Notes: a model not told the origin generated them from the sequence alone. A stretch of 64,000 nt of DNA from an uncultured Acidobacteriota bacterium (GCA_963836435.1 CAWIJI010000011.1:9678-73677); one strand, 5' to 3'. Numbered from the stretch's first letter, positions 3,592 to 58,602 are shown. Numbers and translations: made by a program.

Positions 3592-3641
3592 CGGTCTCGG
3601 TGGCTTCCCCTCAGCTTGCTCATCCGCCTCCTTCCGTTCCT

Positions 3642-4637: not shown

Positions 4638-4646
4638 GGTCGCTCT

Positions 4647-5981: not shown

Positions 5982-5988
5982 GCGCGTT

Positions 5989-8138: not shown

Positions 8139-9742
8139 GCGGCTGACTTGATTCGGTCGACGTTTGTTGCGAAACGCACAACGAGTTCCCGATCCGCCGG
8201 ATGCCTTCCATACCAGATGCGCTCGAGCATGACGAGGTTCTCGCTGAAGAGAGGCGCCAATCCGGCAATCGAATGTCCGCGGCGCTGCAGCTCACTCTCG
8301 TATTCACGGTTGGATTTGAAGTGTGCGATGCCCACCAGATGGCGTTGCGCAAGGTTGGCAAGACTGGCGAGGTGGTAGGCGCGCATGGCAAGCCGAAACT
8401 CGCCATTGTCCATGAGTTGACCGGCGAGGTTTATCCAGCCATCCTCAGGTAACTGGTCGGCCCGGACCGTTTCATCGCGAAGATCGGGGACACTCTCGAT
8501 TGCAACTCGCCCCGCTCCAGCCCTGGAGGCTGCCGCTCGCCGGCGAAATCGCAGCAGAAGGATCGCCAGCAGACACGCCAGTACGGTCAGCAAAACGAAC
8601 AGCAGAAGAGAAGATCTTATCCACCCAAACCCCGGCAGCCTTATCGGGTCGGAGGAGAAGATCTTTCGCCTGATGAAGTCGATCCATTCCGCCACCTTGC
8701 GGGCCGCATCCCTCACCATGCCCACGATGCGTTCCGCGAACCTCGTGACAAGCCCCTTCTCCGCGTCGGCGTCTGGCTGCCTTGGAAGTCTCCAGCTGTA
8801 CTTGGACTGATGAATCACTTCGTCGATTTGACGATCCAGCTGCGTCGCAGAGACCGGCGTTGCCTGTGCTGCATAAACGGAGGCACCGAAGGCCAGTGCG
8901 ACAGTCAAGGCGAGGAGTCCGGCCACGCGCCGCGGCGCCGCCTGAAACTGCCTGAGGTCGGCCCTGAGATCTTCACCGGTCTGGATTGACTCGCCGTAGA
9001 AACAGCGGAGTACATAGACGGTCTTCAGTATCGGATCGACGCATAAATAGGTCAGTCCGGCGATGATTCCGAGGAATGTTGTGTTCAGCATGGCGGCCGG
9101 ACTTCTGCTGAACACCGTTTCAATTCCCAGCAGCGTTCTGATCAGAAAGGGGATGGCGATGACCACGCCTGTCCAGTTCAGGAAGACACACAGCCCAAAG
9201 AAGAAGCCGATACCCATGGCTGAATGATTCTCGAACACCCAGAGTGTGGCCTGGCCCCATGCTTTCTTCGCGAGTTTGCCGGTTTCGCCCGATTCCGGAT
9301 CGGCAAGGGCGGTGACGTTCTGGTAAAACGCATAGACCCAGGCCAGCGGCAGCAGCAGGACGATGGCCAGAGGCAAAACGAAGAGCCCTGTGGAGTGGAT
9401 CACGATTTGAGGAAGCAGTACCCTCAGGCTGCCCTTCAATCCCCAGGACGGCGGCGGCTTCAGCGCGAGTTGTGAGCGAATTCTCGCACTGAACGATGCC
9501 TGGCACAGCTTCATCCAGAAGAAGAGCGTGCAGACGGCGCACGACGCTGCCATCAGATGTTGTCCCGCGAAGGGGCTCAGGCTCATGTCGACAAGGAAGT
9601 AGAGAAACGCCAGCAGGAAGGGAATCGTTCCCACGTAGTAGGTTGCCAGAGTGCGCGCCGGAGCGGCGCGAAACAGTTGCGCGGCTTCTTCGACGAGGTC
9701 CAGGCCTCCTTTCCCGTCTTCCAGGTGTCTTGCGCGTTTCAT
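8135..9742 (-). CDS. polytopic membrane protein with C-terminal DUF4129-like domain
   Basis: Start chosen at an internal Met (MKRARHLEDG..., or MDHDGQTM at 9763). The upstream 90 codons of the long ORF are Arg-rich read-through. The C-terminus (...REYESELQRRGHS...LERIWYGRHP) matches the DUF4129 pattern. ATGA overlap with the upstream gene. Confidence 0.65.
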   Translation of the reverse strand: MKRARHLEDGKGGLDLVEEAAQLFRAAPARTLATYYVGTIPFLLAFLYFLVDMSLSPFAGQHLMAASCAVCTLFFWMKLCQASFSARIRSQLALKPPPSWGLKGSLRVLLPQIVIHSTGLFVLPLAIVLLLPLAWVYAFYQNVTALADPESGETGKLAKKAWGQATLWVFENHSAMGIGFFFGLCVFLNWTGVVIAIPFLIRTLLGIETVFSRSPAAMLNTTFLGIIAGLTYLCVDPILKTVYVLRCFYGESIQTGEDLRADLRQFQAAPRRVAGLLALTVALAFGASVYAAQATPVSATQLDRQIDEVIHQSKYSWRLPRQPDADAEKGLVTRFAERIVGMVRDAARKVAEWIDFIRRKIFSSDPIRLPGFGWIRSSLLLFVLLTVLACLLAILLLRFRRRAAASRAGAGRVAIESVPDLRDETVRADQLPEDGWINLAGQLMDNGEFRLAMRAYHLASLANLAQRHLVGIAHFKSNREYESELQRRGHSIAGLAPLFSENLVMLERIWYGRHPADRELVVRFATNVDRIKSAA

Positions 9743-10083
9743 TGTCTGCCCGTCGTGATCCATGGAGCCCGCCAGACACTCGAGTCGTGGAAGGAGGCGG
9801 GCAAGCGAAGCAGGGTTTCGCCGATGATGAAAAAGAAGAACCATGCGATAAGAACTCCCGCAACCAGTTGAACAGATCGCATCAAGACTGAAAACCCGCG
9901 GCGCCTGGAAAATCCGGGTGCCGCCAGTTTCGTCAGGCATCTTGCGCAGAGGACGCGCTCGTCGTGTTCGGCGACGCATTCGCGGCAGAAGAATCGGCCG
10001 CACTCCGGGCAACGCGCCGCAGCTTCGCGCAATTGGTGATTAAAGCAGCGCTGCGACGAAAAGCTCGCGGCCGGGGCCGTCAT
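9739..10083 (-). CDS. zinc-ribbon (B-box-like CxxC...C..C) protein with C-terminal TM helix
   Basis: Motif CFNHQLREAAARCPECGRFFCRECVAEHDERVLCARCL followed by a hydrophobic helix. Paralogous to the cysteine module of the 10606..11202 gene. Confidence 0.55.
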   Translation of the reverse strand: MTAPAASFSSQRCFNHQLREAAARCPECGRFFCRECVAEHDERVLCARCLTKLAAPGFSRRRGFSVLMRSVQLVAGVLIAWFFFFIIGETLLRLPASFHDSSVWRAPWITTGRQ

Positions 10084-10670
10084 AGTACGTTCTCGCTTTC
10101 AGGCGCGGATGCCGGTTCACTCTCTTCGGTCAAGCGCTGCGCGTCTTCGGGCGTCAGGCGTCCCTGGGCGGCGGCGATCAGGGGGCGGACTCGCTCCAGC
10201 GCCTGGTATGCGCGGCGAATCCTGCCGAGGGAAGGCAGTTCTTCGACCTGGACTGCCGTCCGGAGATAGACTCTGCACGCCGGACCGGCAAGATTGTTGA
10301 TCACCAGCGGTATCGTGAGGATCACTGCCACGATCACCAGCGTTGTCACAGCTGCGCCCAGCCAGCCGAACACCAGCAGGTGCATGACGAGGAGCGCGAT
10401 CAGAACGCCATTCCAGACTGCCCTTCGTCCGGTCGGGCAAATGTAGAAGGCCTGAATATCCCGGAAGTAAAACCTCTTGTACTCCTCCGAGTAACTTGCG
10501 GAGTCGATGCTGAGCAGATGGTCTGCGCCAATCCACAAGCTCTGTCGGGGAGCACTCAATGAGGTGATGAGCGACTTGCGCCGCGGCCGCGACCGCGTCA
10601 GCCGCTTATAGATTGACGCTGCCACTGATGAACCTGATAAGGAAAAAGACGAGCACGACCCAACCGACAA
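10080..10670 (-). CDS. membrane protein with PH-like N-terminal region. The start is uncertain (overlaps the upstream gene by 65 nt, so an alternative start is possible).
   Basis: ORF with 2 TM helices, part of the tightly packed operon. There is no in-frame ATG between the upstream stop and the TM region. Confidence 0.45.
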   Translation of the reverse strand: MSVGSCSSFSLSGSSVAASIYKRLTRSRPRRKSLITSLSAPRQSLWIGADHLLSIDSASYSEEYKRFYFRDIQAFYICPTGRRAVWNGVLIALLVMHLLVFGWLGAAVTTLVIVAVILTIPLVINNLAGPACRVYLRTAVQVEELPSLGRIRRAYQALERVRPLIAAAQGRLTPEDAQRLTEESEPASAPESENVL

Positions 10671-11202
10671 TCTGCAGCGTAGACAGCGCGATGGCCAAAA
10701 TGAAGCGAATTTTCGTGCGCGGTACGATGCTGATCGGAGAATTCCAGTGTCGGATCGATAAATAGAGCGTCACCGGTGCAGTGACGATGGTGATGTAGAA
10801 GACGAGCATCGGAGCGATCGCCAGCGTCAGGGCGATGCTGTCGTGTTTTATTCTGCGATTTTCCAGGCTCTTGATCCTGCCCTTGGTCACGCCCGATTCA
10901 AGACAGGGGGGGCAGAAATGCTCGCCATTGAGTTCGCAGTCGCACAACGCACACAGAAAACGGCCGCATCCCTGGCAAGGCAGCAGAGCCCTCTTCTCGG
11001 TGTGGTAAAAGCACGTGGATTCTCCTTCGAGGAGCACCGGTTCGGCCTCTGCAGGCCGGGTGCGGCGCCTGAAGAAAGCAGGGAACACTTCAATCTCGAA
11101 GGCTGAAGAACACTGGCCGCAGTGCGTCAATTCGCCCTGGCTGACGGGGATATCTGTGATCGGAGCCTGGCATCGAGGACACAGTACAGCAACAGAAGTC
11201 AT
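10606..11202 (-). CDS. double zinc-ribbon membrane protein
   Basis: N-terminal CPRC...CGQC ribbon plus CFYH...CQGCGRFLCALCDCELNGEHFCPPCL module, then 2-3 TM helices. Confidence 0.6.
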   Translation of the reverse strand: MTSVAVLCPRCQAPITDIPVSQGELTHCGQCSSAFEIEVFPAFFRRRTRPAEAEPVLLEGESTCFYHTEKRALLPCQGCGRFLCALCDCELNGEHFCPPCLESGVTKGRIKSLENRRIKHDSIALTLAIAPMLVFYITIVTAPVTLYLSIRHWNSPISIVPRTKIRFILAIALSTLQIVGWVVLVFFLIRFISGSVNL

Positions 11203-11204
11203 CG

Positions 11205-11786
11205 TTACTTGTACACCACCCTTGTATTGCAGATGCGGTCGTGCAGGCCCCGCTTTTCCCCGTCAAACGCCGCCATGATGTATCCAATATAGAGGGTGAA
11301 GAGATTCAGCAGTTTTGCGAAATATCGTCCAGCCGCCCGCAGGTAGGACACTTTACCTCCGTCGGGCATGACGACTTTAACGCCGCAGGCCATTTTTCCC
11401 ACTGTCGCGCCGAATCGCCCGACCATGCCGGCTTCATAGACAACCCCTGTGGCAATACTCAACAGTTCGGCGAGGGCCAGCATCAGCGGCGGTCTGCTTT
11501 CCAGTCCAATGGCCTGATAGAAAGACATGCCCGTTAACAGCTGAATGCCGAAACTCAGCGGTACCATGAGGAATCCATCGACGAGCGCCGCCGCAAACCG
11601 GATCCAGAACCCCGCCCAGCGAAGTTCTCCGGTATCCATCCGGGCGCCTTCGGCGAGTTTCTGAATGAACAGAGGCTTGCAATCTGCGCAGACGTGGACG
11701 TTCCTGTAGCGGATCATGCTGTCCATGGGGAAGACGAGGCTGCATTCCGCGCAATTGGCTGCCGCGGAACTGACGTTCGATTCCAT
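11205..11786 (-). CDS. RDD family protein with N-terminal zinc ribbon (first gene of the operon)
   Basis: CAEC...CADC ribbon followed by an RDD-type membrane domain (...RGLHDRICNTRVV). Confidence 0.7.
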   Translation of the reverse strand: MESNVSSAAANCAECSLVFPMDSMIRYRNVHVCADCKPLFIQKLAEGARMDTGELRWAGFWIRFAAALVDGFLMVPLSFGIQLLTGMSFYQAIGLESRPPLMLALAELLSIATGVVYEAGMVGRFGATVGKMACGVKVVMPDGGKVSYLRAAGRYFAKLLNLFTLYIGYIMAAFDGEKRGLHDRICNTRVVYK

Positions 11787-11909
11787 CGATCCTCCCTGCA
11801 GGTGACTCCGTCACTGTTTCTGCCACAGTGCTCCTGGAAGTGCAATAGTTTCATCGGACTCCAATGAACGGTCTGGCTCCGGAGCCGCCGGCGTGCGATT
11901 CTCTTTCCA

Positions 11910-12383
11910 GTGAATGTGAAAGGGTACACGGTAGGCCTGAAGACGGTGGCGATTTTCGAAGCCTTGAAGGGCAGCATCGTCCTTCTTGCCGCAGCGGGAA
12001 TGATCTCGCTTGTTCACGAGGGCGCCCAGGCGGTAGCTGAAGAAATCGTTCTCCAATTTCATCTGAACCCGGCGAGCCGTTATCCTCATATTTTCCTGGA
12101 TGCAGTAGCTTCTTTGAGCAGCGGCAAGCTTTGGCTGCTTGCCGCGGGCGCCTGTTGTTACGCTGCCCTTCGCTTCCTGGAAGCCTTTGGTCTGTGGCGG
12201 GAACGTGCGTGGGCGGAATGGCTGGGCGCTGTTTCAGGCAGCTTCTACGTGCCGATCGAAGTCTATGAACTCATGCACGGCATCAGCGTGGTGAAGATAT
12301 CCCTGCTTATTATCAATATCGGGATCGTGGCTTTTTTGGGCAGGACCATCTACCGGAATCGTTGGCTTAGCCAATCCGCTTGA
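11910..12383 (+). CDS. DUF2127-like membrane protein
   Basis: 157 aa with 4 TM helices. Pattern (WRERAWAEWLG...YVPIEVYEL) resembles DUF2127. Confidence 0.6.
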   Translation: MNVKGYTVGLKTVAIFEALKGSIVLLAAAGMISLVHEGAQAVAEEIVLQFHLNPASRYPHIFLDAVASLSSGKLWLLAAGACCYAALRFLEAFGLWRERAWAEWLGAVSGSFYVPIEVYELMHGISVVKISLLIINIGIVAFLGRTIYRNRWLSQSA

Positions 12384-12479
12384 ACTCCATTTGGACAATG
12401 TGCCTCTTGAGGGGGACTACCCGTACTTGACGCCGGGTTTTCAGGAGGAGGGGGGCCATTCGCGCGAGTCGTTTCCCCT

Positions 12480-15400
12480 CTACGATTTCTCTGCAGGCGC
12501 CAGTACGGGTTTCGAAGTCCGCCGGAAGACTTTTGCCGCGTCGTCGATCAACGAATAGGCGACAGGGCACATCAGCAACGTGAGCAGCAGCGACAGGCTC
12601 TGACCGCCGATCACGGCAACGGCCACTGCGCGGCGTTCTTCAGCTCCGGGGCCGGTTCCAAGCGCGAGTGGCAGCATGCCGCCCACCAGTGCGAGGGTCG
12701 TCATCAGAATCGGCCGCAGCCTGTCGCGGTTGCCGATGAAGATGGCCTCAAGCTTCGGCATCCCTTCGGCGCGCAGATTATTCATGTGATCGATCTGAAG
12801 AATGGCGTTCTTCTTCACGACGCCAAAAAGCACCAACATGCCCAATGCAGAATACAGATTGAGGCTTTGTCCCATCGCCCACAGCGAAAAGAGCGCGAAG
12901 GGCACTGATAGCGGCAGGGCGAGCAGGATCGTAAAAGGATGGGTCAGGCTTTCAAACAGCGACGCCAGAATCATGTACATGAAAGCCACTGACAGCGCGA
13001 ACGCGATGAGGAACTCCGTGAACGTGCGCTCCAGTTCGCGCCCTCGCCCTGTGATCAGAGTGGAATATCCCGCGGGCATGTTCAGCTCGCGCGCGGCCGC
13101 AGTGAGTGCCTGATTGCGGTCCGCCAGACCGAACCCCGGGGCGACGGAAGCCTGCAGCGTGACCTGGCGCTGACGATCCAGCCGATTGATCTGCGACACG
13201 CTCTGCGCCGGCTGCAGACTGACGAGGTTGTCGAGGCGGATCAACTTACCGTCTTTCGCGGGAATATAGAGTCTCGATATCGTGTTGGGATCGTTGCGGA
13301 AGCCGTCGGCGAGCCTCAGTTGGACGTCGTAATCTTCGTTCACCGACGCATCGTGGAATCGGGATACCCGCTCGTCGCCGCCCACCATCAAGCGCATCGC
13401 CGAAGCGATCGTCTGCACATCCGCATTGAGTCGGCGGCGCGTTGCCGGTCTACCTGAAGCCGTAATTCCGGCCGGTTCAGCTGGATGGAAACCTGCGCGT
13501 CGAGAAGGCCCAGTTCCGGTCCGCGGTTGGCAAGCGCGTTGCGTAGCCAATCAGTTTTTCGATATCCGGTCCGCGGAAGACGAATCCGACGTCCGTTCGC
13601 GATCCCGCACCGGCAAGATTGATCGACTGGGTGTTGTTGATCTGGAACTTCACGCCTTTGTATTGCGCCAATTGCTTGCGCACGTTCTGCATGACGTCAC
13701 GCTGCGTGAAGTTTTGTGGAACGCTTCAAGCGGATCGCCGTGCAGGATTCCCCGCCCAGCCGCACCCACGAGAAAACCCGCTTTTCGTGGGGAACAAGCT
13801 GGACCCAGACGCGCCCCTGGCTCAAGGATCCGTTGTAGTCTCCACCGGAACTGCCAAGCACGGTCGTGACGCCGGGTGATGGACTTGACTTTGGCCTCCA
13901 CCGCCTGCATCAGATCGTCCATGGCCGCCAGGCTCATACCTTCGGGCGCCACCGCGCGAACCTCAAACTGCCCGTCATCGACGTTGGTGGGCAGATAATC
14001 CTGACGTATGACGCGGTACATCGGAACAGAAAGCCCGATAACCGCAACACCGAAGAGGGCGACGGCCACTCGATATTTCATGGAAAACCTGAGCGTGGCC
14101 ATGTATCCGGAATCGATCCAGCGGTAAAAACCCTGACGGGACCGAGCCGCGTCGTGCCCTCCCTGGCCCGTGCTCGAAACACGCAGCATTCGGGCGCACA
14201 TCATCGGAGTCAGGGTGAACGAAACCAGCAGGCTTACCATCACCGCCACCGCTGCGGTTATCCCGAATTGATAGAGGAACCGTCCCGCGATGCTCGACAT
14301 GAAAGAGACGGGGACAAAGATCACGACCAGGCTCAACGTGGTGGCCAGTACGGCGTGTCCGACGTCTGCAGTCGCAGCTCGCGCCGCTTCGAAAGGCCCC
14401 ATTTTCTTCTCTTCCATGAAGACGGAAGGTGTTTTCGAGCACAACAAGGGCGTCGTCAATTACGATTCCCACCATCAGGACCAGCGCGAGCATGGTGACG
14501 CTGTTCAGCGTGAAGTGAAGCGCCCACATCACTCCGAAAGCGGAGATCAGCGAGCAGGGGATGGAAACCGCGGCGATAATCGTGGCCTGCCAGTTGCGCA
14601 TGAAGGCCATCACCACGAGGCTGGCCAGGATGCTTCCCATCAGCAGGTGAATGTTGATTTCATGAAGGGCCGCATAGATAAAGCCGGATTGATCTTCCAG
14701 GGTCTGCAGTTGTACGTCGGGAGGCAATTGAGCCGCGATTTTAGCCAGGTTGGCCTTCACTCCTTCGATGACGTCGATGGTATTCGAGCCCGATTGGCGG
14801 CGGACTTCCAGCGTGACCGTTCTCTTCCCGTTCAGGCGGGAGGAACTGCGGGCTTCCTTCGTGCCATCCTCGGCGTAGCCGATATCGCGAATGCGGACCG
14901 GGGCGCCTTTAATTGTGGCGACGACGAGGTCGTTGAAGTCGGCGGTAGAGACCAGTCGTCCCATGGTGCGAAGATTCTGTTCATTATTTCCCGAGGTGAC
15001 ATTTCCTCCGGGAACGTCGGCGTTTTGCCTCACGATGGCATCGCGAACCGCAGTGATGGGAAGCTGGTATGCCGTGAGACGGTCGGGATCGATCCAGATG
15101 TTGACGGCGCGTTCGAGGCCGCCATTGATCTTCACCTCCCCGACCCCGGGGCTCCGCTCGATCTGTTCCCGGACGACCTTGTCGGCGATTTCGGTCAGTT
15201 CACGGATGGGGCGTTCGCTTATCAGCGCGATCGAAAGCGAGGGCGACTGGTCGGCGTCGAACTTGTTGACAACCGGCGGCAAGGCATCAATGGGCAGGTT
15301 GCGGACCACCGCGGCCACGCGGTCGCGCACGTCCTGAGCGGCAGTTTCGATGTCCCGGTTCAGATTGAACGTCAGGATCACATTCGACGTGCTCTGCCCG

Positions 15401-15654
15401 GAGCCTGACCGTATCTCGGCCACGCCTTCGATGGTATTGACGGCCTCCTCGATGGGCTGCACGACCGAGGTTTCAACTTCTTCCGGTGCAGCGCCGGGCA
15501 GCACGGTGCGCACGGCAATTGTGGGTAGTTCGACCTGCGGATGCTTATCCAGAGAGAGTTGGAAGTAGCTCGTCGCGCCGATGACAACCAGCGACAACAC
15601 AATCATTGTCGCGAAAACCGGACGTCGGATGCAGAGTTCGGCGAGCCTTTGCAT
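12480..15654 (-). pseudogene. RND efflux transporter permease (AcrB/CzcA superfamily) disrupted by multiple frameshifts
   Basis: Three long ORF fragments (13975..15654, 13650..14459, 12480..13550) plus a 71-aa piece (13477..13692) are all RND permease sequence in different frames. Joints are visible at about 14425 (ENTFRLH / MEEKKMGPF), about 13873 (KSIT / GVTTVLGSSGGDYNGSL), about 13720, about 13505 (LIGYA / NALANRGPELGLLDAQV) and about 13440 (LQVDRQRAAD / LNADVQTIASAM). Confidence 0.85.
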
Positions 15655-15657
15655 CGC

Positions 15658-16884
15658 CTATTTCTCCGCCGCCGGTGAAATCACCAGGACCTTCTCGCCG
15701 TCAGTCATGTTTCCTGGATTGAGAGCGACCTGTTCGTTCGCGGTAATGCCTTCCAGGATCTCAATACCCGCATTCGTGTGGCGTCCTGTTTTGACGCGTT
15801 TTTCCGAAGCCGTGCCGCCGGCAATGGTGAATACCCGGTCGATACCGGCGAAGGTGACGACCGAAGCCGCAGGCACCATCAGGGCACGCTGGCTCGAAGA
15901 GGTTACGATTTCGGCGCGCGCGAAAGCTCCAGGACGTATCGTGCCGGAGGGGTTCGCCACTTCAGTCTCCACAAGCAGCGTGCGGTTCGTTTCGTCGAAA
16001 GAAGGACTCAGTCGAGCCACCTGGCCCTGATGCTCGCCGCTCGATCCTTCTACCGTAAGGCGGACGGGCATTCCAACCCGGATGTTGATCGACTCCCGCT
16101 CCGGGACCTCGGTACGCAGCCGCAGCGGACTCATCTGGACGACGGTGGCAATGGGCGCGCCCGCCGATACATATTGGCCCACATTGGCTGCCCGCGCGCG
16201 GATCATGCCGTCGATCGGAGCGTATAACACGGCATCGGCAAGTTGCTGCCGCGCGATTTCCAGCTCCGACTTGCGCTGCGCCAGGACCCCTTGCCGGTTT
16301 CGCGCTTCATCCAGCGAATCCGCATATTGGGCTTCGGTGACCTTGTAAGCGGAGGAGGTCGCATCGAGGTCGGCTTTCGCCAGCAGCCCGCTTTGAGAAA
16401 GCTGCTGCGCGCGATCCAGCCGCGACTTTGCGCCGTCCATCTGCGCCCGCGCCTGCCGCACGGGCGCCAGCTGTTCCAGAATCACGTCCTCTTCTGTGCC
16501 ATTAGGCGAGAGGCCCAGCCGGACTCGCGCCTGCTGCAGGGCCGCTTCACTCTGGCGCATGCGCAACTGGAAATCCGTGGTATCGAGGCTGGCAATGACG
16601 TCGCCCTTGCGAACAGGCGTGCCCAGATCAACCGGAAGTTCAGCAATACGGCCGGCAACCTTCATGCCGAGAACAATTTCCTGTTCCGCTGCGAGAGTTC
16701 CGGTGATCGTGACGAGTTGCTCGATGGCTTTCTCCTCAGCCAGGGCCGTCGTGATCTTGCGGAGGGAATCACCACTGTTAATTCCGCGTCCCGGTGGGAC
16801 CGGAGCTGTCGATCCAGGCGCGGCATTGCAACCCGACAACAAGAAGATACTGAGAAACGCAGGTATCAGGACCTTGACAACCGT
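15658..16884 (-). CDS. efflux RND transporter periplasmic adaptor subunit (membrane fusion protein, lipoprotein)
   Basis: Lipobox LLSGC, biotinyl-lipoyl-like and beta-barrel MFP regions. Directly upstream of the RND permease. Confidence 0.88.
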   Translation of the reverse strand, partial: TVVKVLIPAFLSIFLLSGCNAAPGSTAPVPPGRGINSGDSLRKITTALAEEKAIEQLVTITGTLAAEQEIVLGMKVAGRIAELPVDLGTPVRKGDVIASLDTTDFQLRMRQSEAALQQARVRLGLSPNGTEEDVILEQLAPVRQARAQMDGAKSRLDRAQQLSQSGLLAKADLDATSSAYKVTEAQYADSLDEARNRQGVLAQRKSELEIARQQLADAVLYAPIDGMIRARAANVGQYVSAGAPIATVVQMSPLRLRTEVPERESINIRVGMPVRLTVEGSSGEHQGQVARLSPSFDETNRTLLVETEVANPSGTIRPGAFARAEIVTSSSQRALMVPAASVVTFAGIDRVFTIAGGTASEKRVKTGRHTNAGIEILEGITANEQVALNPGNMTDGEKVLVISPAAEK

Positions 16885-17001
16885 CATCCAACGCCTTTCG
16901 GTCTGCCCAATCCCAATCATTCTAAAGATAATTGGCGAACTGTCCAAGCCCTGTCTGGGACCAAAGTCCCAAATTCAACGTCGAGGGGGTCCCTCCCGGA
17001 G

Positions 17002-17283
17002 TTAGCCGGCCGAAATTCTGCTCTCCTCCGGGAGGAGTTGCTCTTTTGCCCGGTACCAGTCTTCGTCCGGAGAACCGTAGGGTCTGCCGCGGACTTCCCA
17101 CAGTGCATAGGCCTTTCGCTGGATCTCTTCGTCTGACAGCAGGTACACGGAGGGCGCGTCGGACGGCGCAGCCACTGCCCCTGCAGTCCTCGCCTTCGGC
17201 GACTTCCGCTTCAGTTCGGTCTTCGCAGTGGAGCGTTTTTCCACGCCATTGCTGCGTTTGGATGAACTCTTCCTGGATGTCAT
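17002..17283 (-). CDS. DUF2934-like small protein
   Basis: C-terminal motif DEEIQRKAYALWEVRGRPYGSPDEDWYRAKEQL. Start set at MTSRKSS because the longer ORF reads through an upstream palindrome. Confidence 0.55.
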   Translation of the reverse strand: MTSRKSSSKRSNGVEKRSTAKTELKRKSPKARTAGAVAAPSDAPSVYLLSDEEIQRKAYALWEVRGRPYGSPDEDWYRAKEQLLPEESRISAG

Positions 17284-17295
17284 GCGTATTCCTCC

Positions 17296-17345
17296 ACAAA
17301 GACAAAAGACGTCCAGCATCCCGCCCGCGCGGGAGAAATGGACGT
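17296..17345 (-). promoter_or_regulatory. 12-bp perfect inverted repeat (ACAAAGACGTCC ... GGACGTCTTTGT) immediately upstream of the DUF2934-like gene; candidate operator
   Basis: Seen directly in the sequence. The spacer itself contains cccgcgcggg. Confidence 0.35.
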
Positions 17346-17379
17346 CTTTGTCGTTACAAACTTCGTTGTCCAAAAAAAA

Positions 17380-17412
17380 GGCCTTCGGGCAGAAAAGCCG
17401 AAGACCTCATCG
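17380..17412 (-). terminator. rho-independent terminator downstream of the methyltransferase gene
   Basis: Minus strand reads ggtCTTCGGcttttctgcCCGAAGgccttttttttgg: a 6-bp GC-rich stem followed by a T8 run. Confidence 0.5.
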
Positions 17413-17564
17413 TCAGCACAAACACCATTGTCTCTGTGCTGAATACTGATTATCCGGATCGGCGGGACGATGTCAACTGCGACCTTGGCTCCGGCGAACG
17501 CCCGCTGAACCTCCTTCAAACCCTCGTCTGCTTTGCGCACGGAATGAGGGCAGACGGCATTGAT

Positions 17565-18323
17565 TCAGGCAGGCTTGCTGCCGATGGCGACAAGGCGTTG
17601 TGCATCCGGACCGTAAGGCTCTCCCCGAAGGTTTCCGTACAGCCTGACGTTCCGGAAACCGGCTCTCTCCAGGCTTTCGCGGAGCTCCTGCCCGGAATAG
17701 AGGTTCAGTTCGAACGTGAACCGCCGTGCCTTGCCGTTTCGGACGATGGTCCACCGGTTGCAAAGACGGCTCCAGCCGTCGAGGATTTGTGGCTGCTGGA
17801 TGAGGATCGAGCCATCAGGCGCAGTCTCCGCCAACGAGGGCTGGTAGATTTTTGCCAGCTTTTCCTTCCCCAACAGGTCGATAAGAAAATGCCCTTTGGG
17901 CCGAAGAGAGGTGAAGACGTTCTTCAGGACCAGAAAATCTTCGTTCCGGCTCCCGAAATATCCAAATGACGTAAACATGCTGAGCGCGAGATCGTAGGAG
18001 CCCTTTCGCACGAAGTTCCTCATGTCCTCCTGAATCCACTCCACCCGAACGTCTTCCTTTCGCGCGCGTGCTCTGGCCTTATCAAGGAGGTATCGGGTCC
18101 GATCGACGCCGGTCACCGACAGCCCCTGCTTCGCAAGCGCCACGGCGCATCTCCCCGGGCCGCAACACAGATCCAGCACGGCGTTGCCCGAAGGCGAGGC
18201 GAGAGCGAGCGCTTTTGCGACCTGGTCTGTTGCCTCCGCGATACGCGTGTCCGGAAACATGAAGGCGTAGGTTTCACGCCAGAATGACTCGTTTTCGAAC
18301 CATTCTTTTCCCCTGGTCTTCAT
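17565..18323 (-). CDS. class I SAM-dependent methyltransferase
   Basis: Motif I VLDLCCGPGRCAVALA, with acidic post-I and motif II regions. Confidence 0.85.
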   Translation of the reverse strand: MKTRGKEWFENESFWRETYAFMFPDTRIAEATDQVAKALALASPSGNAVLDLCCGPGRCAVALAKQGLSVTGVDRTRYLLDKARARARKEDVRVEWIQEDMRNFVRKGSYDLALSMFTSFGYFGSRNEDFLVLKNVFTSLRPKGHFLIDLLGKEKLAKIYQPSLAETAPDGSILIQQPQILDGWSRLCNRWTIVRNGKARRFTFELNLYSGQELRESLERAGFRNVRLYGNLRGEPYGPDAQRLVAIGSKPA

Positions 18324-18388
18324 GGTCGCGTATTGTAGCCGAAGGAAGTCGGGTCCGTGCTACTCGCACACCGAACTCCTCTGCTCTG

Positions 18389-19048
18389 ATGATCAACGAA
18401 TATTTCGTGGCGAGTCATGCGGGTACGGCAGACATGGATCTGCTTTGGGCTGAGGGCTGGCGGCACTTCGGTGTCTACTTCTTCCGCTACTCGGCCGCTC
18501 AGCACGACGGAAGTCCGCGCCACGTTCTGCCGTTGCGCATCGATCTCGCCGGTTTTACACCCTCGAGGAGTCAGCGCCGGGTTCTGCGGAGGAATTCTGA
18601 CGTTCGGGTCGTTATCCGCGACGCTGTCATCGACTCCGAGAAGGAGGGCCTGTTCGATCGCCATCGCGGGCGTTTCAAGGAGAATGTGCCGAATTCGCTC
18701 TACGACTTCCTTTCCGAGCACCCGGCCTCTGTCCCGTGCCCCAATCACGAGATCTGCGTTTACAGCGAAAGCCGGCTGCTCGCTTTCAGCTTTCTGGATA
18801 TAGGGTTGACGGCGACTTCCGCCGTTTACGCGGCATTCGATCCTGCCGAAAACAAACGCAGTCTGGGGATATTTACGATGCTTTGTGCTATCGAGCATTC
18901 CCTCAATCTCGGGCGGCGCTATTACTATCCCGGTTACGCGTACCGCGAGCCGAGCATGTACGATTACAAGAAGAGATTCGGCAGCCTGGAGTTTCTGGAT
19001 TGGAACGAAGGCTGGAAACGATGGCCGGACCCGGGCGGCGCCATTTGA
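18389..19048 (+). CDS. bpt: arginyltransferase-family protein (Bpt-like aminoacyl-tRNA-protein transferase)
   Basis: ATE_N/ATE_C-like pattern (...RYYYPGYAYREPSMYDYKKRF...). Start placed at MINEYFVASH. Confidence 0.6.
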   Translation: MINEYFVASHAGTADMDLLWAEGWRHFGVYFFRYSAAQHDGSPRHVLPLRIDLAGFTPSRSQRRVLRRNSDVRVVIRDAVIDSEKEGLFDRHRGRFKENVPNSLYDFLSEHPASVPCPNHEICVYSESRLLAFSFLDIGLTATSAVYAAFDPAENKRSLGIFTMLCAIEHSLNLGRRYYYPGYAYREPSMYDYKKRFGSLEFLDWNEGWKRWPDPGGAI

Positions 19049-19090
19049 TTATTCGGGGCCGTGCCGCCGGACTCTGAATGCAGGCCGGCC

Positions 19091-19828
19091 CTATCCGAAC
19101 CTTGACCTGAACTCCTTCGAGTAGTTTCGGCCGATCGGAAGTTCGGAACCGTCCGACAGTTTCACCAGATAGTTGCCGCCCGCCAGGGAGTGGACCTCGC
19201 GGGCATAGGAGAGCTGCACGATAACCTGTTTATGGATGCGGCAGAAGACCTCGGGATCCACGCGCTCTTCCAATTCCTTCATGGTGATGTTGAGCACGAA
19301 CTTTCCGGTGGCGGTGCGAGCGAAAACGAGGCGGTCTTCGGATTCGAAGGCGATCACGTCTGAAACATTGACCACCGCGAGTTTCTGGCCGGAGCGGGCC
19401 AGCAGGCGTTCGAGCTTTCGGCCCTCGTGGCGCACCTCTTCAAGTGTGCGGCGATGTGAGGAGGTCGAGATTGATTCCAGGCGGTCGAGGCATTGGGCCA
19501 GGCGTTTGGCTGTGACAGGCTTCATCAGGTAATCGAGCGCGTGCACGTCGAAGGCGCGGATGGCGTGGTGCCCGAAGGCCGTGACGAAAATCACAACAGG
19601 CCATTCCTCTTCGGGCAGGGAATCGAGCACCCCAAACCCGTCGAGGCCGGGCATCTCGATATCGAGGAAGAGCACGTCGGGTTGGAGTTCCTGAATGGCG
19701 GAAACCGCGGAGACGCCGTCGGCCGCTTCGCCGACGACCTCGATGCGATCCGCATGAGCGGCAAGAAGCCGGGCCAGACGGCGGCGCGCCTCATGTTCAT
19801 CGTCAACCAGAACAGCCCGGCGTTTCAT
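19091..19828 (-). CDS. LytTR-family response regulator (REC + LytTR DNA-binding domain)
   Basis: REC domain with LVDDE, phospho-acceptor region and K at the expected position, plus a LytTR C-terminal domain. Confidence 0.9.
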   Translation of the reverse strand: MKRRAVLVDDEHEARRRLARLLAAHADRIEVVGEAADGVSAVSAIQELQPDVLFLDIEMPGLDGFGVLDSLPEEEWPVVIFVTAFGHHAIRAFDVHALDYLMKPVTAKRLAQCLDRLESISTSSHRRTLEEVRHEGRKLERLLARSGQKLAVVNVSDVIAFESEDRLVFARTATGKFVLNITMKELEERVDPEVFCRIHKQVIVQLSYAREVHSLAGGNYLVKLSDGSELPIGRNYSKEFRSRFG

Positions 19829-30961: not shown

Positions 30962-33040
30962 ATGACTATCACTTTGCTTCTTTGGACATTCGGGATTGTT
31001 CTGGCGCTTGTACTGATTCCCTGGCTTGCCGGGGTTCGATACATTCCGCACAACAAAGTCGGTATTGTCGAAAAGCTCTGGTCGCCCAAAGGCTCGTTGA
31101 CGGGTGGGCGCATCGTGGCTCTCGGAGGTGAAGCGGGTTTTCAGGCTGAACTTCTGCGCGGGGGAGTGCACGCGGGATTTTTCCCGTGGCAATACCGGAT
31201 TCACAAGGAACCGCTGGTCATGATTTCTGAGAGCAAGATCGGCTATGTCTATGCGCGCGACGGAAGTCCGCTCCCGCCGACGCAGACGCTTGCCCGGATT
31301 GTGGACTGCAATCACTTTCAGGATGCCGAGGGGTTCCTCAACCATGAAGGGCAGCGCGGCCGGCAGCGAGCCATTCTTCGTGAAGGCGTGTTCGCCATCA
31401 ACACGGCGTTGTTCGTCGTGATTACGGAGGATCGTGTCTTCGCCGGCCCGATGCGCGACCGGCAACAAAGCAAGTTCAATGAGTGGCAGGGCCAGTTGAA
31501 GTCCCTGCTGGGATTCGATCCGGTGGTTGTGGGCTTTGGCGGCCAGGCGGCGATCAGAGCCGAGGAACCTGTCGTGGGCGGCGCCGACCTCACGATGACG
31601 CCGACGGATACGATCGGCATCGTGACGATTCACGACGGCGCGCCACTGGAGTCGGGAGAAATCATTGCACCCGAAGTGCGAGCCGAAACCCGCAGTCACA
31701 ACTACTTCCAGGATCCGGAGACCTTTTTGTCTCTCGGAGGACGGCGTGGAAAGCAGTTACAAGTGCTGACCGACGGCACGTTCTTCATCAACCGCTGGTT
31801 CGCCACGGTTGAAACTCGTCCAAAGACGCTGATTCCGATCGGTTACGTCGGCGTTGTGGTGTCGTATTACGGCACCAGGGGCGAAGACACCACCGGCGAA
31901 GGATTTCGTTACGGCGAGCAGGTCGAACTCGGGGAGCGCGGGGTGTGGAAACAAGCGCTGCCTCCGGGGAAGTATCCGGTGAATCCCTATGCCGTGAAGG
32001 TGGAGCTGGTGCCGACGGTTAACTTCGTCTTGCGCTGGATTACCGGCCAGGCCGAGGCGCATCAATACGACAAGGACCTGGTTTCCATCGCGCTGATCAC
32101 GGCCGATGGTTACGAACCGGTGCTCCCGTTGTCGCTGGTGTTGCACATCGACTATGAAAAGGCCCCCAGCGTGGTCCAGCGTTTCGGCGATGTCAGCCGG
32201 CTGATCACGCAGACGCTGGATCCGATTCTGACGTCATACTTTCGCGATGTCGCGCAGTCGTCCAACATGCTCGATCTGTTGACGCACCGTGAAGATATTC
32301 AACGGCGGGCGACCGAGGAACTGGGGAAACGATTCAAGGAGTTCGATATCAATTGCATCGCGGTGTTGATCGGCCGTCCGGAGTCGACTATCGACGTGGC
32401 CGAGGAAGATCCGATCGACCGGCTCTTTGACCAGCTGCGCATGCGGCGGCTGGCCGAAGAACAGATTGCGACCTTCGGAAGGCAGGAGGAAGCCGCGATG
32501 CACCTGAAGGATCTTAACGACGCGAAAGCCGCGGCGGAAAAGCAGGCCGAGCTGACGCAAACCAAAATCGATATCGAAGTCGCGGGCAACCGCGGCGAGG
32601 CCCAGCTGGCGGAGGCGCAGCGTCTTTCTCGCCGTGATATTGCGCGGGCGGAAGGCGAGTCGCGATCGCGGGAACTGCTGGGTCGCGGCGAAGCTTCGAA
32701 GATCGCGCAAGTCGGTCTGGCGGAAGCCGCCGTTTCGCTGCAGAAGATTCGCGCGTATGGCGATCCGCGATTGTTCGCGTTGAACCTGGCGACCGATCGT
32801 TTCGCCAGCAGCGCCCAGCCTCTTGTTCCGGAACGCCTGCTGGTCATGGCAGGCGCCGCCGGCGGCGATCAGGCGGATCTCGGCTCTTCGAACGTGTTCA
32901 GCCAGTTCCTGACGCTGTTGCTGGCGGAGAAGTCCGGGCTGGGTGTGACCGAAAGCGGCAAAGGCATGGAGGACCTTGAAAAATTGACCGCAAGTCTGGC
33001 GAAAAAATTCGAGCAGACGATCAACGCGAGCGAATCGTAA
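30962..33040 (+). CDS. SPFH/band-7 (flotillin/YqiK-like) domain protein with long coiled-coil C-terminus
   Basis: N-terminal TM helix, SPFH core and an extended Ala/Glu/Arg-rich coiled coil. Start set at MTITLLLW. Confidence 0.8.
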   Translation: MTITLLLWTFGIVLALVLIPWLAGVRYIPHNKVGIVEKLWSPKGSLTGGRIVALGGEAGFQAELLRGGVHAGFFPWQYRIHKEPLVMISESKIGYVYARDGSPLPPTQTLARIVDCNHFQDAEGFLNHEGQRGRQRAILREGVFAINTALFVVITEDRVFAGPMRDRQQSKFNEWQGQLKSLLGFDPVVVGFGGQAAIRAEEPVVGGADLTMTPTDTIGIVTIHDGAPLESGEIIAPEVRAETRSHNYFQDPETFLSLGGRRGKQLQVLTDGTFFINRWFATVETRPKTLIPIGYVGVVVSYYGTRGEDTTGEGFRYGEQVELGERGVWKQALPPGKYPVNPYAVKVELVPTVNFVLRWITGQAEAHQYDKDLVSIALITADGYEPVLPLSLVLHIDYEKAPSVVQRFGDVSRLITQTLDPILTSYFRDVAQSSNMLDLLTHREDIQRRATEELGKRFKEFDINCIAVLIGRPESTIDVAEEDPIDRLFDQLRMRRLAEEQIATFGRQEEAAMHLKDLNDAKAAAEKQAELTQTKIDIEVAGNRGEAQLAEAQRLSRRDIARAEGESRSRELLGRGEASKIAQVGLAEAAVSLQKIRAYGDPRLFALNLATDRFASSAQPLVPERLLVMAGAAGGDQADLGSSNVFSQFLTLLLAEKSGLGVTESGKGMEDLEKLTASLAKKFEQTINASES

Positions 33041-34434
33041 CCCGACCGTCGGTGGCGGCGGATACAACTGGATGCTTTTTCAGGTACGGAAGTCACGGCA
33101 TCACGCAGGAGCGTTCCCGTGTCTTCCACGGAAGTTCCCTGGGTAAGCTCGGCCAGTCCGTCGCCGCCGGCGGCCATGAAGTCGTTGGCGGCGACGGTGT
33201 AACGCGACGCATCCCGCAGCGACTCGCCGTTGGCGAGAGTCGCCGAAAGAAGCCGGTTTGGAAAGGGCCGGGTCATATCCCACGAAACCTTCAGGCCGCT
33301 AACCGCAAGGACGCGGCGGCCCAGCAACTGTTTCACCTGAGCGCCGCTCAGGCTCATCTTCACTACAGTGTTCTGGAAGGGAAGCACGTCGAACAGGTCG
33401 CCTCTGGTAATCCGACCCTTCCGGATCGTCGAACGGATCCCCCCAACATTATGAAAAGCGATCTGCGTGCCGGCATAGTCGCGTATCGCGTCGGCCAGCA
33501 GGTTGTTCAGGGGCGATTCCTGGGTGTCGGACTTGACCAGATTGGCGCCCGCTTCGCCGACACGCTGGGCGGCGCGCGCAGCGAGCTGGCGCTCATACGG
33601 GGCGATGATCGCCGCGATATCCGGGTCTTTCGCAACACCCCGCACGGGGAACATCTGGGACGTCATGGATTCGATGGTCTTGCCAGACAAACGTATTTCA
33701 ACTTTGCCGAGATTCTGGGTGCTGCTTCCCGTTTCGACGATGAGCGTTTCCCCGACCTGCGTTGCACGAGTGGCGTGCGGATGGCCGGCAATGATGAGCC
33801 GGATTTCCGGAAAGGCTTTCGCGATCCGGACCTGCTCTTCGAACGAGACATGAGCAACAAGAAAAATGAAATCGGACTGCGGACGAACCATGGGCAGAGC
33901 TTCCCGGAGTGCGTCGATGGCGTTGGTGACTTTGATGTCCTTGAGATTTTTCGGATGCGTGACTTCGGAGAGTGTTTCCACCGTCAAACCGATCACGCCG
34001 ATGCGCAACCCTTTCACGTTCAGGATGGTGTAGGGCTGTACTTCCGGGACACCGCTCACATTCGCCGAGAGAACGGGAAAGTGCGCCTCTTTCAGGCGAT
34101 TCCGCAACTCCGTTATGCCGTAGTCGAATTCATGATTGCCCAGCGCGACGGCGGCGTACCCCAGCTTGTTCAGGATTTCGACCATCGGCTTGCCGAAAAA
34201 CTCGTCGTTGATCATCGAGCCGGTGAACATGTCGCCACCGTCGAGGAGGAGATCCGGACGCTGGCGTCGTATGAGGGTGGCAAGCTCGGCCATCCCTCCA
34301 ACGCCGTCCCGGGGCAGCACCTGTCCGTGCATATCGTTGGTGTGAAGCAGGACGAGCGTTGTTGGCGCCTGGGACAGCGCGAGGCCGCCGGCCAGCAGCA
34401 GGGAAGTAACGACGGTGAGCAGAAACTTCCGCAT
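32869..34434 (-). CDS. bifunctional metallophosphatase / 5'-nucleotidase (UshA/CpdB-like)
   Basis: Signal peptide, calcineurin-like metal ligands (HTNDMHG, GGD, GNHEFD) and a 5'-nucleotidase C-terminal domain. The 3' end overlaps the convergent SPFH gene by 172 nt, and the last ~40 codons are low-complexity. Confidence 0.85.
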   Translation of the reverse strand: MRKFLLTVVTSLLLAGGLALSQAPTTLVLLHTNDMHGQVLPRDGVGGMAELATLIRRQRPDLLLDGGDMFTGSMINDEFFGKPMVEILNKLGYAAVALGNHEFDYGITELRNRLKEAHFPVLSANVSGVPEVQPYTILNVKGLRIGVIGLTVETLSEVTHPKNLKDIKVTNAIDALREALPMVRPQSDFIFLVAHVSFEEQVRIAKAFPEIRLIIAGHPHATRATQVGETLIVETGSSTQNLGKVEIRLSGKTIESMTSQMFPVRGVAKDPDIAAIIAPYERQLAARAAQRVGEAGANLVKSDTQESPLNNLLADAIRDYAGTQIAFHNVGGIRSTIRKGRITRGDLFDVLPFQNTVVKMSLSGAQVKQLLGRRVLAVSGLKVSWDMTRPFPNRLLSATLANGESLRDASRYTVAANDFMAAGGDGLAELTQGTSVEDTGTLLRDAVTSVPEKASSCIRRHRRSGYDSLALIVCSNFFARLAVNFSRSSMPLPLSVTPSPDFSASNSVRNWLNTFEEPRSA

Positions 34435-40515: not shown

Positions 40516-40588
<73 letters not shown>

Positions 40589-58040: not shown

Positions 58041-58602
58041 CGTCATTTCTGCTCCGGCTTTTTGTCCTCGGGATACCAGTACTTCTTGTGAAGGTTTCGC
58101 AGGCGGTGTCGATTCCGCCTCCGGCACTTGAAAGCGCGTCGGCATCTTTGGCGTCAATCGCTTTCACCGCAACCAGGACCGAATCCTGCAGGGCGCGTGC
58201 GAGCTTCGCCCAGTCTCCTCGATCCTGGTTTATCAGCATCTCGATCTGATCGGGTGTGAGTTCGACATTGGGATCCTTGGCCTGTTCGCCGGGTCTCGCG
58301 ACTTTTCTTCCAGGCATCAGGATAAGATTCATGGCCTCGTGCAGTGTGACGGCTTCGTGGCGCATGTTGGCCCACTCCTCGTCGTTCTTGGGCGCCTGCG
58401 TCTCGACTCCCTTCTCCGTGACGGACGTGGAGACGGCGTTCCACAGGCTATCCGCCCTCGGCTCCACCATGGATTGCATGATCTCCCGGATGGTGAACGC
58501 CGGCGCAACGTCAGGCGGTGCATCGGCGGTTTTACTGGCTTCGCAGGCCGCTGCGGCGCACGCGGATATTGCGACGGTGAGAAATAGGAGGAACTTTCGC
58601 AT
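57973..58602 (-). CDS. class II cytochrome c (cytochrome c'-like) lipoprotein; the heme-binding CxxCH is out of frame, so possibly a pseudogene or a sequence error
   Basis: Lipobox LTVAISACA and a four-helix-bundle-like body. The ORF ends ...GGIDTACETFTRSTG.... Inserting one G (acct-g-tcacaag) restores ...TACETCHKKYWYPEDKKPEQK*, the classic C-terminal CxxCH-x2-Y of cytochromes c'. Confidence 0.5.
   Translation of the reverse strand: MRKFLLFLTVAISACAAAACEASKTADAPPDVAPAFTIREIMQSMVEPRADSLWNAVSTSVTEKGVETQAPKNDEEWANMRHEAVTLHEAMNLILMPGRKVARPGEQAKDPNVELTPDQIEMLINQDRGDWAKLARALQDSVLVAVKAIDAKDADALSSAGGGIDTACETFTRSTGIPRTKSRSRNDGGEIGGVEDREPLAETFIEFPH

What the first reader, a model, noticed from the sequence alone, without database searches (positions are those of the whole stretch)
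12480..15654. RND permease gene broken by at least five frameshifts clustered in about 1 kb, while the adaptor gene is intact
The N-terminal ~480 and C-terminal ~330 codons read cleanly, but the middle third needs frame changes at about 14425, 13873, 13720, 13505 and 13440 to recover RND sequence. At least the one at 13873 lies in a homopolymer. Natural pseudogenes usually accumulate lesions dispersed along the gene. A tight cluster of indels suggests either a locally low-quality assembly, for example long-read homopolymer errors, or a hotspot. The upstream membrane-fusion gene is intact, so either the pump is dead or the sequence is wrong. That matters for interpreting other frameshift-like features in this window, such as the cytochrome c' gene.
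Basis: seen in the sequence. Interest (0 to 1): 0.5.

Follow-up and report, generated by a model that had tools for sequence, protein, structure and literature searches.

The report
Efflux pump gene broken by likely errors
An efflux-pump gene in this soil acidobacterial contig is interrupted by six single-base insertions or deletions packed into 1 kb, and these most likely reflect a patch of poor consensus sequence in the assembly rather than a dead gene.

Summary
The RND (HAE1-type) permease gene on the minus strand, 12480-15654, carries six single-base indels within 992 bp: +1 at 14421/22 and 13879, and -1 after 13758, 13714, 13538 and 13431. The adaptor gene (15658-16887) is intact.

Undoing the six indels gives one 1058-codon ORF with no internal stop. 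It is 90-92% identical to intact 1060-aa orthologues. The affected kilobase shows no relaxed selection: 80% of window-specific substitutions are at third codon positions, and none of 171 highly conserved residues is changed.

None of the indels sits in a long homopolymer. Two unrelated genes in the window carry the same kind of lesion: a 5'-nucleotidase (extra base at 33087) and a cytochrome c'-like gene (base missing at 58092/58091, inside its CxxCH motif). About 50 other genes look intact.

The source is a single 602,695-nt contig. The best explanation is uncorrected consensus indels in a long-read-type assembly, with a local low-quality patch over the pump gene (about 0.8). A real, very recent pseudogene cannot be excluded without reads (about 0.15). 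The finding is ordinary, but it is a useful warning about other frameshifts in this contig.

The parts
12480..15654 (-). RND (HAE1-type) efflux permease gene. As given it is split into four ORF pieces: 13975-15654, 13650-14459, 13477-13692 and 12480-13550.
   Evidence: ORF list and three-frame translation. Orthologues of 1060 aa at 90-92% identity. The repaired protein matches NCBIfam NF033617 over positions 2-1008 of 1009, while the as-is N-terminal ORF matches only 2-410.
14421..14422 (-). Indel 1: one extra base. The gene strand reads CCG-T-C-TTC where the orthologues have CCG-A-TTC. It falls after codon 411, just after the TM4 'VIDDALVVLENTFR' stretch.
13879..13879 (-). Indel 2: one extra base (T on the gene strand, TCCA[T]CACCC). 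Removing it restores the conserved K-S-T-P-G-V.
13757..13758 (-). Indel 3: one base missing between these positions. It is the third position of a Leu codon (CT-).
13713..13714 (-). Indel 4: one base missing. It is the third position of an Asn codon that is Asn in 13 and Asp in 2 of the 15 closest homologues (AA-|AAC).
13537..13538 (-). Indel 5: one base missing (AC-|GCG).
13430..13431 (-). Indel 6: one base missing. It is the third position of an Asp codon that is invariant in 69 homologues (GA-|CTC).
15658..16887 (-). Intact periplasmic adaptor (membrane-fusion protein) gene, 409 aa with a lipoprotein-type signal peptide. Its stop codon lies 3 nt upstream of the permease ATG.
   Evidence: The exact 409-aa product is on record from the 602,695-nt source contig.
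33021..34434 (-). 5'-nucleotidase/metallophosphatase gene with one extra base (g at 33087, tcc[g]tac). As given, the ORF runs on to 32869, 171 nt into the convergent gene.
   Evidence: The orthologues are all 470 aa and end '...LLRDAVTSYLKKHPVVSAATDGRVTIRSR', exactly as the repaired window sequence does. The window's own called product is 521 aa.
58043..58602 (-). Cytochrome c'-like gene with one base missing between 58092 and 58091 (T[G]T of the first Cys codon of CxxCH). The repaired C-terminus reads '...ACETCHKKYWYPEDKKPEQK*'.
   Evidence: The repaired protein hits Pfam PF01322 (E 4.5e-5, 24.8 bits, just below the 26.5-bit cut-off). The as-is ORF has no hit.

Best explanation
The six frame changes are uncorrected single-base consensus errors in the assembly. 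They form a local patch of poor consensus about 1 kb long (13431-14422) in a contig that also carries sporadic errors of the same kind elsewhere. In the organism the gene is most likely an intact 1058-codon HAE1-type RND permease. It would be translationally coupled to its adaptor gene and work as an ordinary proton-driven efflux pump.

Shown here:
- the number and positions of the indels;
- the intact repaired frame;
- the absence of any sign of decay;
- the same lesion type in two other genes;
- the length of the source contig.

Inferred:
- that the contig comes from long reads;
- that local read depth, or polishing, failed over this kilobase (for example a coverage dip, unpolished windows, or a mix of strains in the pile-up).
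For: 1. Only indels are present. After six single-base edits the gene is one ORF of 1058 codons with no internal stop. It matches an RND permease profile end to end.

2. There is no relaxed selection in the affected kilobase. Window-specific substitutions fall 14/3/67 on codon positions 1/2/3 (20% at positions 1+2), against 28% in both clean flanks and 18-33% in intact orthologues. Of 171 residues that are at least 95% conserved among 69 homologues, none is changed apart from the codon that lost a base. Over the whole protein, 5 of 625 conserved positions differ, the same as in intact orthologues P0001-P0010 (3-6).

3. The lesions are tightly clustered. P = 0.013 within the gene and about 6e-7 within the window. 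Decay after a first inactivating hit should spread over the whole gene.

4. Two unrelated genes have the same lesion type with perfectly conserved downstream sequence in the shifted frame. The 5'-nucleotidase has +1 at 33087, and its last 24 residues are identical to orthologue P0266. The cytochrome c'-like gene has -1 inside CxxCH.

5. All 15 other genes shared with the syntenic contig L001 are full length in one frame. The 20 further ORFs scanned show full Pfam domain coverage or no hit, and none is split; the one short hit (the PMT_2 ORF) is listed under evidence against. So the errors are rare overall and concentrated here.

6. The window's proteins are on record from one contig of 602,695 nt (NCBI+ENA). 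The window holds two transposase genes and at least six copies of a 150-250-nt repeat, which short-read metagenome assemblies rarely span.

7. Related long contigs L083 (796 kb, named 'contig_1851') and L084 (131 kb) carry related RND genes (about 75% nt identity to the window gene, different flanking genes). These are broken by 3 and 4 single-base, non-homopolymer indels, next to intact adaptors.

8. Residual indels that break gene calls are a documented property of Nanopore assemblies, especially below about 40-fold coverage (PMC9262707).
Against: No reads, depths or quality values are available, so the artefact is inferred and not seen.

The sequencing platform of the source is unknown.

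Residual errors of polished Nanopore or PacBio assemblies are described as mainly homopolymer-linked (PMC9262707). Here none of the eight indels is in a run of 5 or more bases, and at most three could be contractions of 2-4-base runs.

A 150-fold local excess of errors needs a special cause that I cannot demonstrate.

No excess of substitution errors is seen in the patch. About one deviation at a conserved residue would be my rough expectation if the stretch had raw-read quality, so zero is not informative.

L083 and L084 were picked because they hold fragments, so they do not give an unbiased error rate.
Confidence: 0.8

Rival explanations
1. This is a genuine, very recent pseudogene. The six indels are real and fixed in this population, the pump is dead, and the adaptor gene is left as an orphan.
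For: The sequence as deposited has the lesions and the gene was called in fragments (559-aa product on record). Neighbouring genes are intact, as expected for single-gene inactivation. Acidobacteria carry many RND paralogues, so loss of one copy is plausible (background knowledge). RND genes of related contigs are also fragmented.
Against: There is no trace of relaxed constraint. Codon-position bias and conserved residues in the affected kilobase are as in intact orthologues, and the restored frame has no stop. Six indels with no detectable neutral substitutions would be unusual, because substitutions normally outnumber indels several-fold in decaying genes (background knowledge). After the first hit at codon 411 the remaining 1.9 kb should decay evenly, yet the last 951 nt have no indel (P about 0.035 by my own arithmetic, not a tool result; whole gene 0.013). 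Spontaneous indels are strongly biased to runs and repeats (background knowledge), and these are not. Two unrelated genes show equally 'fresh' frameshifts, which would need a genome-wide burst.
Confidence: 0.15
2. This is a real, localised mutation shower. A single error-prone repair or gap-filling tract about 1 kb long introduced several +/-1 frameshifts at once.
For: Tight clustering. Absence of later decay, which fits one recent event.
Against: Known error-prone polymerases give mainly base substitutions and -1 events in runs (background knowledge). Here there are no excess substitutions, both +1 and -1 events occur, and they are outside runs. The isolated lesions in two other genes are not explained by this. 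Nothing marks the locus as special: no repeats, no composition shift.
Confidence: 0.04
3. The gene is expressed through programmed frameshifting or as naturally split subunits.
For: None beyond the bare fact of frame changes.
Against: All 69 close homologues, 76-92% identical, read through in one frame (1043-1070 aa). Six sites of both signs lack any common slippery motif. The first break falls inside the transmembrane core, right after TM4, so the pieces do not correspond to structural halves.
Confidence: 0.01

Closest known systems
HAE1-family RND multidrug efflux permeases (Pfam PF00873 ACR_tran; NCBIfam RND_permease_2; solved relatives MdtB, CmeB, MexB, AcrB)
   Same: The repaired protein is 1058 aa and matches NF033617 over positions 2-1008 of 1009 (E 1e-245). 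The best solved relative is E. coli MdtB, 9lyq_B (E 1.8e-129). It carries the 'DD' pair in the TM4 stretch VIDDALV. An adaptor gene lies immediately upstream.
   Different: As written in the window, the longest ORF covers only profile positions 2-410. The bit score (818) is below NCBI's strict 1250-bit cut-off for that subfamily model, so it is a divergent acidobacterial member. No outer-membrane factor gene was seen next to the adaptor and permease genes (ORF list).
Indel (frameshift) consensus errors of long-read assemblies, as described for Nanopore MAGs (PMC9262707) and targeted by frameshift-correction tools (proovframe, bioRxiv 10.1101/2021.08.23.457338)
   Same: Single-base indels break otherwise perfectly conserved ORFs. 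Several genes of one contig are affected. The contig is long and spans repeats.
   Different: The indels are not in homopolymers, and six of the eight are packed into 1 kb instead of being scattered. The platform of the source is not known.
Bacterial pseudogenes formed by frameshift decay
   Same: A disrupted ORF with an intact neighbouring gene.
   Different: No excess of non-synonymous change, no stop in the ancestral frame, clustered rather than dispersed lesions, and no run bias.

Membership tests
RND superfamily, HAE1-type permease | End-to-end match to an RND permease profile, length about 1,050 aa | tested here: met
The as-is N-terminal ORF stops matching at profile position 410.
RND superfamily, HAE1-type permease | Score above NCBIfam's curated cut-off for a named subfamily | tested here: not met
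   818 bits against a cut-off of 1250 for NF033617, and 556 against 940 for TIGR00915. This is a divergent member and is not assignable to a named equivalog such as MdtB/MdtC/AcrB.
RND superfamily, HAE1-type permease | Internal two-fold repeat (N and C halves) and 12 transmembrane segments | tested here: inconclusive
   A weak N-half versus C-half tblastn match was seen (query 272-486 against window 13187-12567). Transmembrane topology was not predicted.
RND superfamily, HAE1-type permease | Partner periplasmic adaptor gene in the same operon | tested here: met
   Gene 15658-16887 scores 200.9 bits against TIGR01730 RND_mfp (cut-off 94.9). Its stop lies 3 nt before the permease ATG.
Long-read assembly indel artefact | Lesions are single-base indels, and the shifted downstream sequence stays fully conserved | tested here: met
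   for the RND gene. for the 5'-nucleotidase. for the cytochrome c'-like gene.
Long-read assembly indel artefact | The same lesion type in unrelated genes of the same contig | tested here: met
   Extra base at 33087 and missing base at 58092/58091.
Long-read assembly indel artefact | Errors concentrated in homopolymer runs | tested here: not met
   None of the eight indels lies in a run of 5 or more bases. Both RND insertions and the lesions in the 5'-nucleotidase and cytochrome c'-like genes are outside any run.
Long-read assembly indel artefact | Low depth, low quality or mixed alleles in the reads at the sites | not testable with these tools
   No reads or quality values are available. The source contig could not be retrieved.
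Decaying bacterial pseudogene | Relaxed selection: excess changes at codon positions 1 and 2, changed conserved residues, stops in the ancestral frame | tested here: not met
   20% of lineage-specific changes fall at positions 1+2 in the affected kilobase, against 28% in the flanks. None of 171 conserved residues is changed, and there is no stop.
Decaying bacterial pseudogene | Lesions dispersed along the gene | tested here: not met
   All six lie within 992 of 3175 nt (P = 0.013).
Programmed ribosomal frameshifting | Frameshift site conserved in orthologues, with a slippery motif | tested here: not met
   All close homologues read through in one frame. There is no common motif at the six sites.

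The most novel reading that the evidence does not exclude
The six indels are real and arose together in one indel-only mutational event confined to about 1 kb, for example an error-prone repair tract. This event would have inactivated an efflux pump very recently in a soil Terriglobia population. The isolated frameshifts in the 5'-nucleotidase and cytochrome c'-like genes would then come from the same unusual mutational process.
Probability: 0.04. Interest if true: 0.55.

Novelty: not a real feature. Interest (0 to 1): 0.12.

Why it matters
The main value is as a quality flag. If the indels are artefacts, the organism has a working RND pump, an intact 5'-nucleotidase and an intact cytochrome c'-like protein. 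Any frameshift-like oddity in this contig, whether an apparent pseudogene, split gene, long overlap of convergent genes or 'missing' haem motif, should then be treated as suspect until reads are checked. Pseudogene counts, efflux-pump inventories and metabolic reconstructions from this genome would otherwise be biased. If the indels were real, the locus would show an unusual clustered, indel-only mutation pattern, but nothing here requires that.

Tried and rejected
1. Looking for the same species elsewhere.
- The genome-contig scan gave a best hit of only 82% aa identity over the N-terminal part (Terriglobia MAG SMAG_U761).
- A degenerate pattern specific to the window's residues, searched in JGI metagenomes, returned only 72-76% nt orthologues.
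- A protein search with the repaired middle third found no fragment above 93% identity.
- So there is no independent same-species copy to compare.

2. Retrieving the source contig by exact protein look-up. Both attempts failed, although listing of cluster members shows the proteins are on record from a 602,695-nt contig.

3. A first frameshift survey with a codon-frame HMM found frame switches only in the RND gene. I nearly concluded that the rest of the window was clean. It missed frameshifts close to gene ends. A tail-score check then exposed the lesions in the 5'-nucleotidase and the cytochrome c'-like gene.

5. An apparent frame switch at 29599-29743 was rejected. The Sir2-family (29728-30492) and rhodanese-like (29269-29646) genes are separate and intact.

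6. A possible frameshift in a PMT_2-like ORF (48456-49175, only 239 aa) stayed unresolved. The downstream ORFs have no Pfam hit.

7. Natural compensating frameshift pairs were rejected. Every segment matches the orthologues in the orthologue frame.

8. No shared sequence motif was found at the eight indel sites. No repeat or composition change marks the patch.

Full report
**What is there**

The minus strand of 12480-15654 encodes an RND efflux permease. It is read in four overlapping ORF pieces in three frames. A search with a hand-joined translation found many intact homologues of 1043-1070 aa, the closest 90-92% identical. All of them come from metagenomes of Acidobacteriota/Terriglobia type.

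I fetched the DNA of two of these orthologue genes (L001 from an ENA contig, L002 from a Logan contig) and aligned them with the window gene. At about 82% nucleotide identity throughout, the window differs by exactly six 1-nt indels and one in-frame 6-nt gap near the C-terminus.
- The indels are +1 at 14421/22 and +1 at 13879.
- They are -1 after 13758, 13714, 13538 and 13431.
- Deleting two bases and adding four gives one ORF of 1058 codons.
- That ORF matches the NCBIfam RND_permease_2 profile from position 2 to 1008 of 1009. The as-is N-terminal ORF matches only positions 2-410.
- The nearest solved structure is E. coli MdtB, followed by CmeB, MexB and AcrB.

The adaptor gene directly upstream (15658-16887) is intact. 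There are six events rather than five. The clean N-terminal part is 411 codons rather than about 480. The event near 13873 is not a homopolymer event.

**Is the gene decaying?**

No sign of decay was found.
- I assigned substitutions to the window lineage (sites where both orthologues agree and the window differs). In the affected kilobase they fall 14/3/67 on codon positions 1/2/3. That is 20% at positions 1+2, against 28% in both clean flanks and 18-33% in the intact orthologues.
- The repaired frame has no internal stop.
- Its amino-acid identity to the orthologues in the middle third (0.87-0.92) equals that between the two orthologues (0.89).
- Among 171 middle-third residues that are at least 95% conserved in 69 homologues, the window deviates at none, apart from the one codon that lost a base.
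- Over the whole protein it deviates at 5 of 625 conserved positions. Intact orthologues P0001-P0010 deviate at 3-6.

The sequence therefore behaved as a selected gene up to the moment the indels appeared.

**Clustering and context of the indels**

All six indels lie within 992 nt of a 3175-nt gene (P = 0.013 for uniform placement). None is in a long homopolymer.
- Both insertions are a base placed between unlike neighbours.
- Two of the deleted bases, judged from the orthologues, stood alone between other bases (A[C]A, A[T]C). A third (indel 3) is a lone C in the orthologues, but its identity in the window is unknown.
- At most three deletions (indels 3, 5 and 6) could be contractions of 2-4-base runs.
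- No common motif, repeat or composition change marks the patch.

**Is the rest of the window clean?**

Mostly, but not entirely.
- The ENA contig L001 is syntenic with window 2846-20827. All 15 other shared genes hit the window full length in a single frame.
- Pfam scans of 40 further ORFs found no gene split between neighbouring ORFs. Every hit covers its domain profile apart from a PMT_2-like ORF that looks truncated (below), and 13 ORFs have no hit.
- A codon-frame HMM found same-strand frame switches without stop/start signals only inside the RND gene.
- That HMM is blind near gene ends. A check of coding score in gene tails exposed two more lesions, described next.

The first is in the 5'-nucleotidase gene. 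It has an extra g at 33087. As written it runs 171 nt into the convergent gene. With the base removed it is 470 aa and ends '...LLRDAVTSYLKKHPVVSAATDGRVTIRSR', exactly like its orthologues, nearly all of which are 470 aa. The window's own product on record is 521 aa.

The second is in the cytochrome c'-like gene (as-is ORF 57973-58602; 58043-58602 once repaired). It lacks one base between 58092 and 58091, inside the first Cys codon of CxxCH. Restoring it gives '...ACETCHKKYWYPEDKKPEQK*' and a Pfam cytochrome c' hit (E 4.5e-5, just under the gathering score). The as-is ORF has no hit.

Neither lesion is in a homopolymer, and in both genes the shifted downstream sequence is fully conserved. A PMT_2-like ORF at 48456-49175 may also be truncated, but I could not resolve it.

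With eight known indels in about 55 kb of coding sequence, six falling in one 992-nt stretch has P of about 6e-7.

**Where the window comes from**

Exact-sequence look-up shows that the window's proteins, including the 559-aa N-terminal RND fragment and the 409-aa adaptor, are on record from a single NCBI/ENA contig of 602,695 nt. The contig itself could not be retrieved.

No genome of the same species is in the representative genome set; the best hit is 82% aa identity, to a Terriglobia MAG. None was found in JGI metagenomes either.

The window contains a tRNA-Lys followed by a low-GC island, two transposase genes, and at least six copies of a 150-250-nt palindromic repeat. A contig of this length that spans such repeats points to long reads, but this is an inference.

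Two other long contigs carry related RND genes (about 75% nt identity to the window gene, different flanking genes): L083 (796 kb, 'contig_1851', ENA) and L084 (131 kb, JGI). These genes are broken by three and four single-base, non-homopolymer indels at other positions, next to intact adaptors. In L083 the repaired frame is conserved with no stop; in L084 the picture is less clean, with one internal stop after repair and 39% of lineage-specific changes at codon positions 1+2. I chose them because they were fragments, so they only show that this pattern recurs in such assemblies.

The literature documents that Nanopore consensus sequences keep indels that fragment gene calls, especially below about 40-fold coverage. 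It describes those indels as mostly homopolymer-linked (PMC9262707).

**Interpretation**

The best explanation is a local patch of uncorrected consensus errors in a long-read-type assembly, set on a low background of the same error type (confidence about 0.8). The reasons are:
- the lesions are indels only;
- the repaired frames are perfectly conserved in three unrelated genes;
- the clustering is extreme;
- the indels are not in the run contexts typical of spontaneous frameshift mutations.

Weak points remain. No reads are available. The platform is unknown. The non-homopolymer context is also atypical for well-polished long-read assemblies; it fits a consensus built from few reads, or unpolished, better.

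A real and very recent pseudogene remains possible (about 0.15). A real clustered mutation event is a small subset of that (about 0.04). Programmed frameshifting or a natural split gene is effectively excluded by the single-frame orthologues.

**Comparison with known systems, and novelty**

The gene is an ordinary, somewhat divergent HAE1-type RND permease with its adaptor. The phenomenon matches known frameshift artefacts of long-read assemblies, except for the tight clustering and the lack of homopolymer association. I rate it as not a real biological feature and of low interest.

Noticed in passing
window 58043-58602 (minus strand); lesion between 58092 and 58091: A cytochrome c'-like gene has lost one base inside the first Cys codon of its CxxCH haem motif. 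The repaired protein (186 aa) hits Pfam PF01322 weakly (24.8 bits, cut-off 26.5). The as-is 209-aa ORF has no hit.
   Followed up: yes
window 33021-34434 (minus strand); extra base at 33087: A 5'-nucleotidase/metallophosphatase gene has a +1 insertion near its 3' end. As written it overlaps the convergent gene by 171 nt. Once repaired it is 470 aa, like nearly all its orthologues, and its last 24 residues are identical to orthologue P0266.
   Followed up: yes
window 30588-30750 (+), upstream of ORF 30920-33040 (+): A c-di-AMP (ydaO-type) riboswitch scores 73.9 bits against a gathering score of 38. It sits in front of a 706-aa protein whose only Pfam hit is an SPFH/Band 7 domain. This may be an unusual gene for that riboswitch to control.
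   Followed up: no
window 40516-40588 (tRNA-Lys CTT) and 40.6-50 kb: The tRNA-Lys is followed by about 10 kb of lower G+C (50-56% against about 60%) with atypical codon usage. The stretch includes a 479-aa ORF at 45508-46947 that reads like a transposase (not scanned against Pfam), a SWIM zinc-finger ORF, a methyltransferase and several ORFs without family hits. It looks like an integrated island.
   Followed up: partly
window 29003-29165, 34590-34778, 48136-48399, 54084-54336, 58707-59003, 60079-60397: A family of 150-250-nt intergenic palindromic repeats occurs in both orientations. Copies are 85-100% alike over 45-110-nt arms and are rich in CCCGGGG and GCACGCCGGAGGCGTGC motifs. This is probably a MITE- or REP-like element. 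Spurious ORFs ending '...RRRRAENLAPG' come from it.
   Followed up: partly
window 48456-49175 (+): A PMT_2-like glycosyltransferase ORF is only 239 aa, with negative coding score in its last 80 codons. It may be another truncated or frameshifted gene in the island. The downstream ORFs 48953-49354 and 49351-49815 have no Pfam hit.
   Followed up: partly
L083:4820-8017 and L084:5595-8767: Related RND permease genes (about 75% nt identity to the window gene, different flanking genes) on two other long contigs (ENA 796 kb, JGI 131 kb) are each broken into four pieces. L083 has three +1 indels (codons 51, 380, 641). L084 has four -1 indels (codons 87, 124, 686, 803). Their adaptor genes are intact. 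The L084 copy also has one internal stop after repair.
   Followed up: partly
window 59075-59887 (+): An IS-type DDE transposase gene (Pfam DDE_Tnp_1, 270 aa) is flanked by copies of the palindromic repeat family.
   Followed up: no
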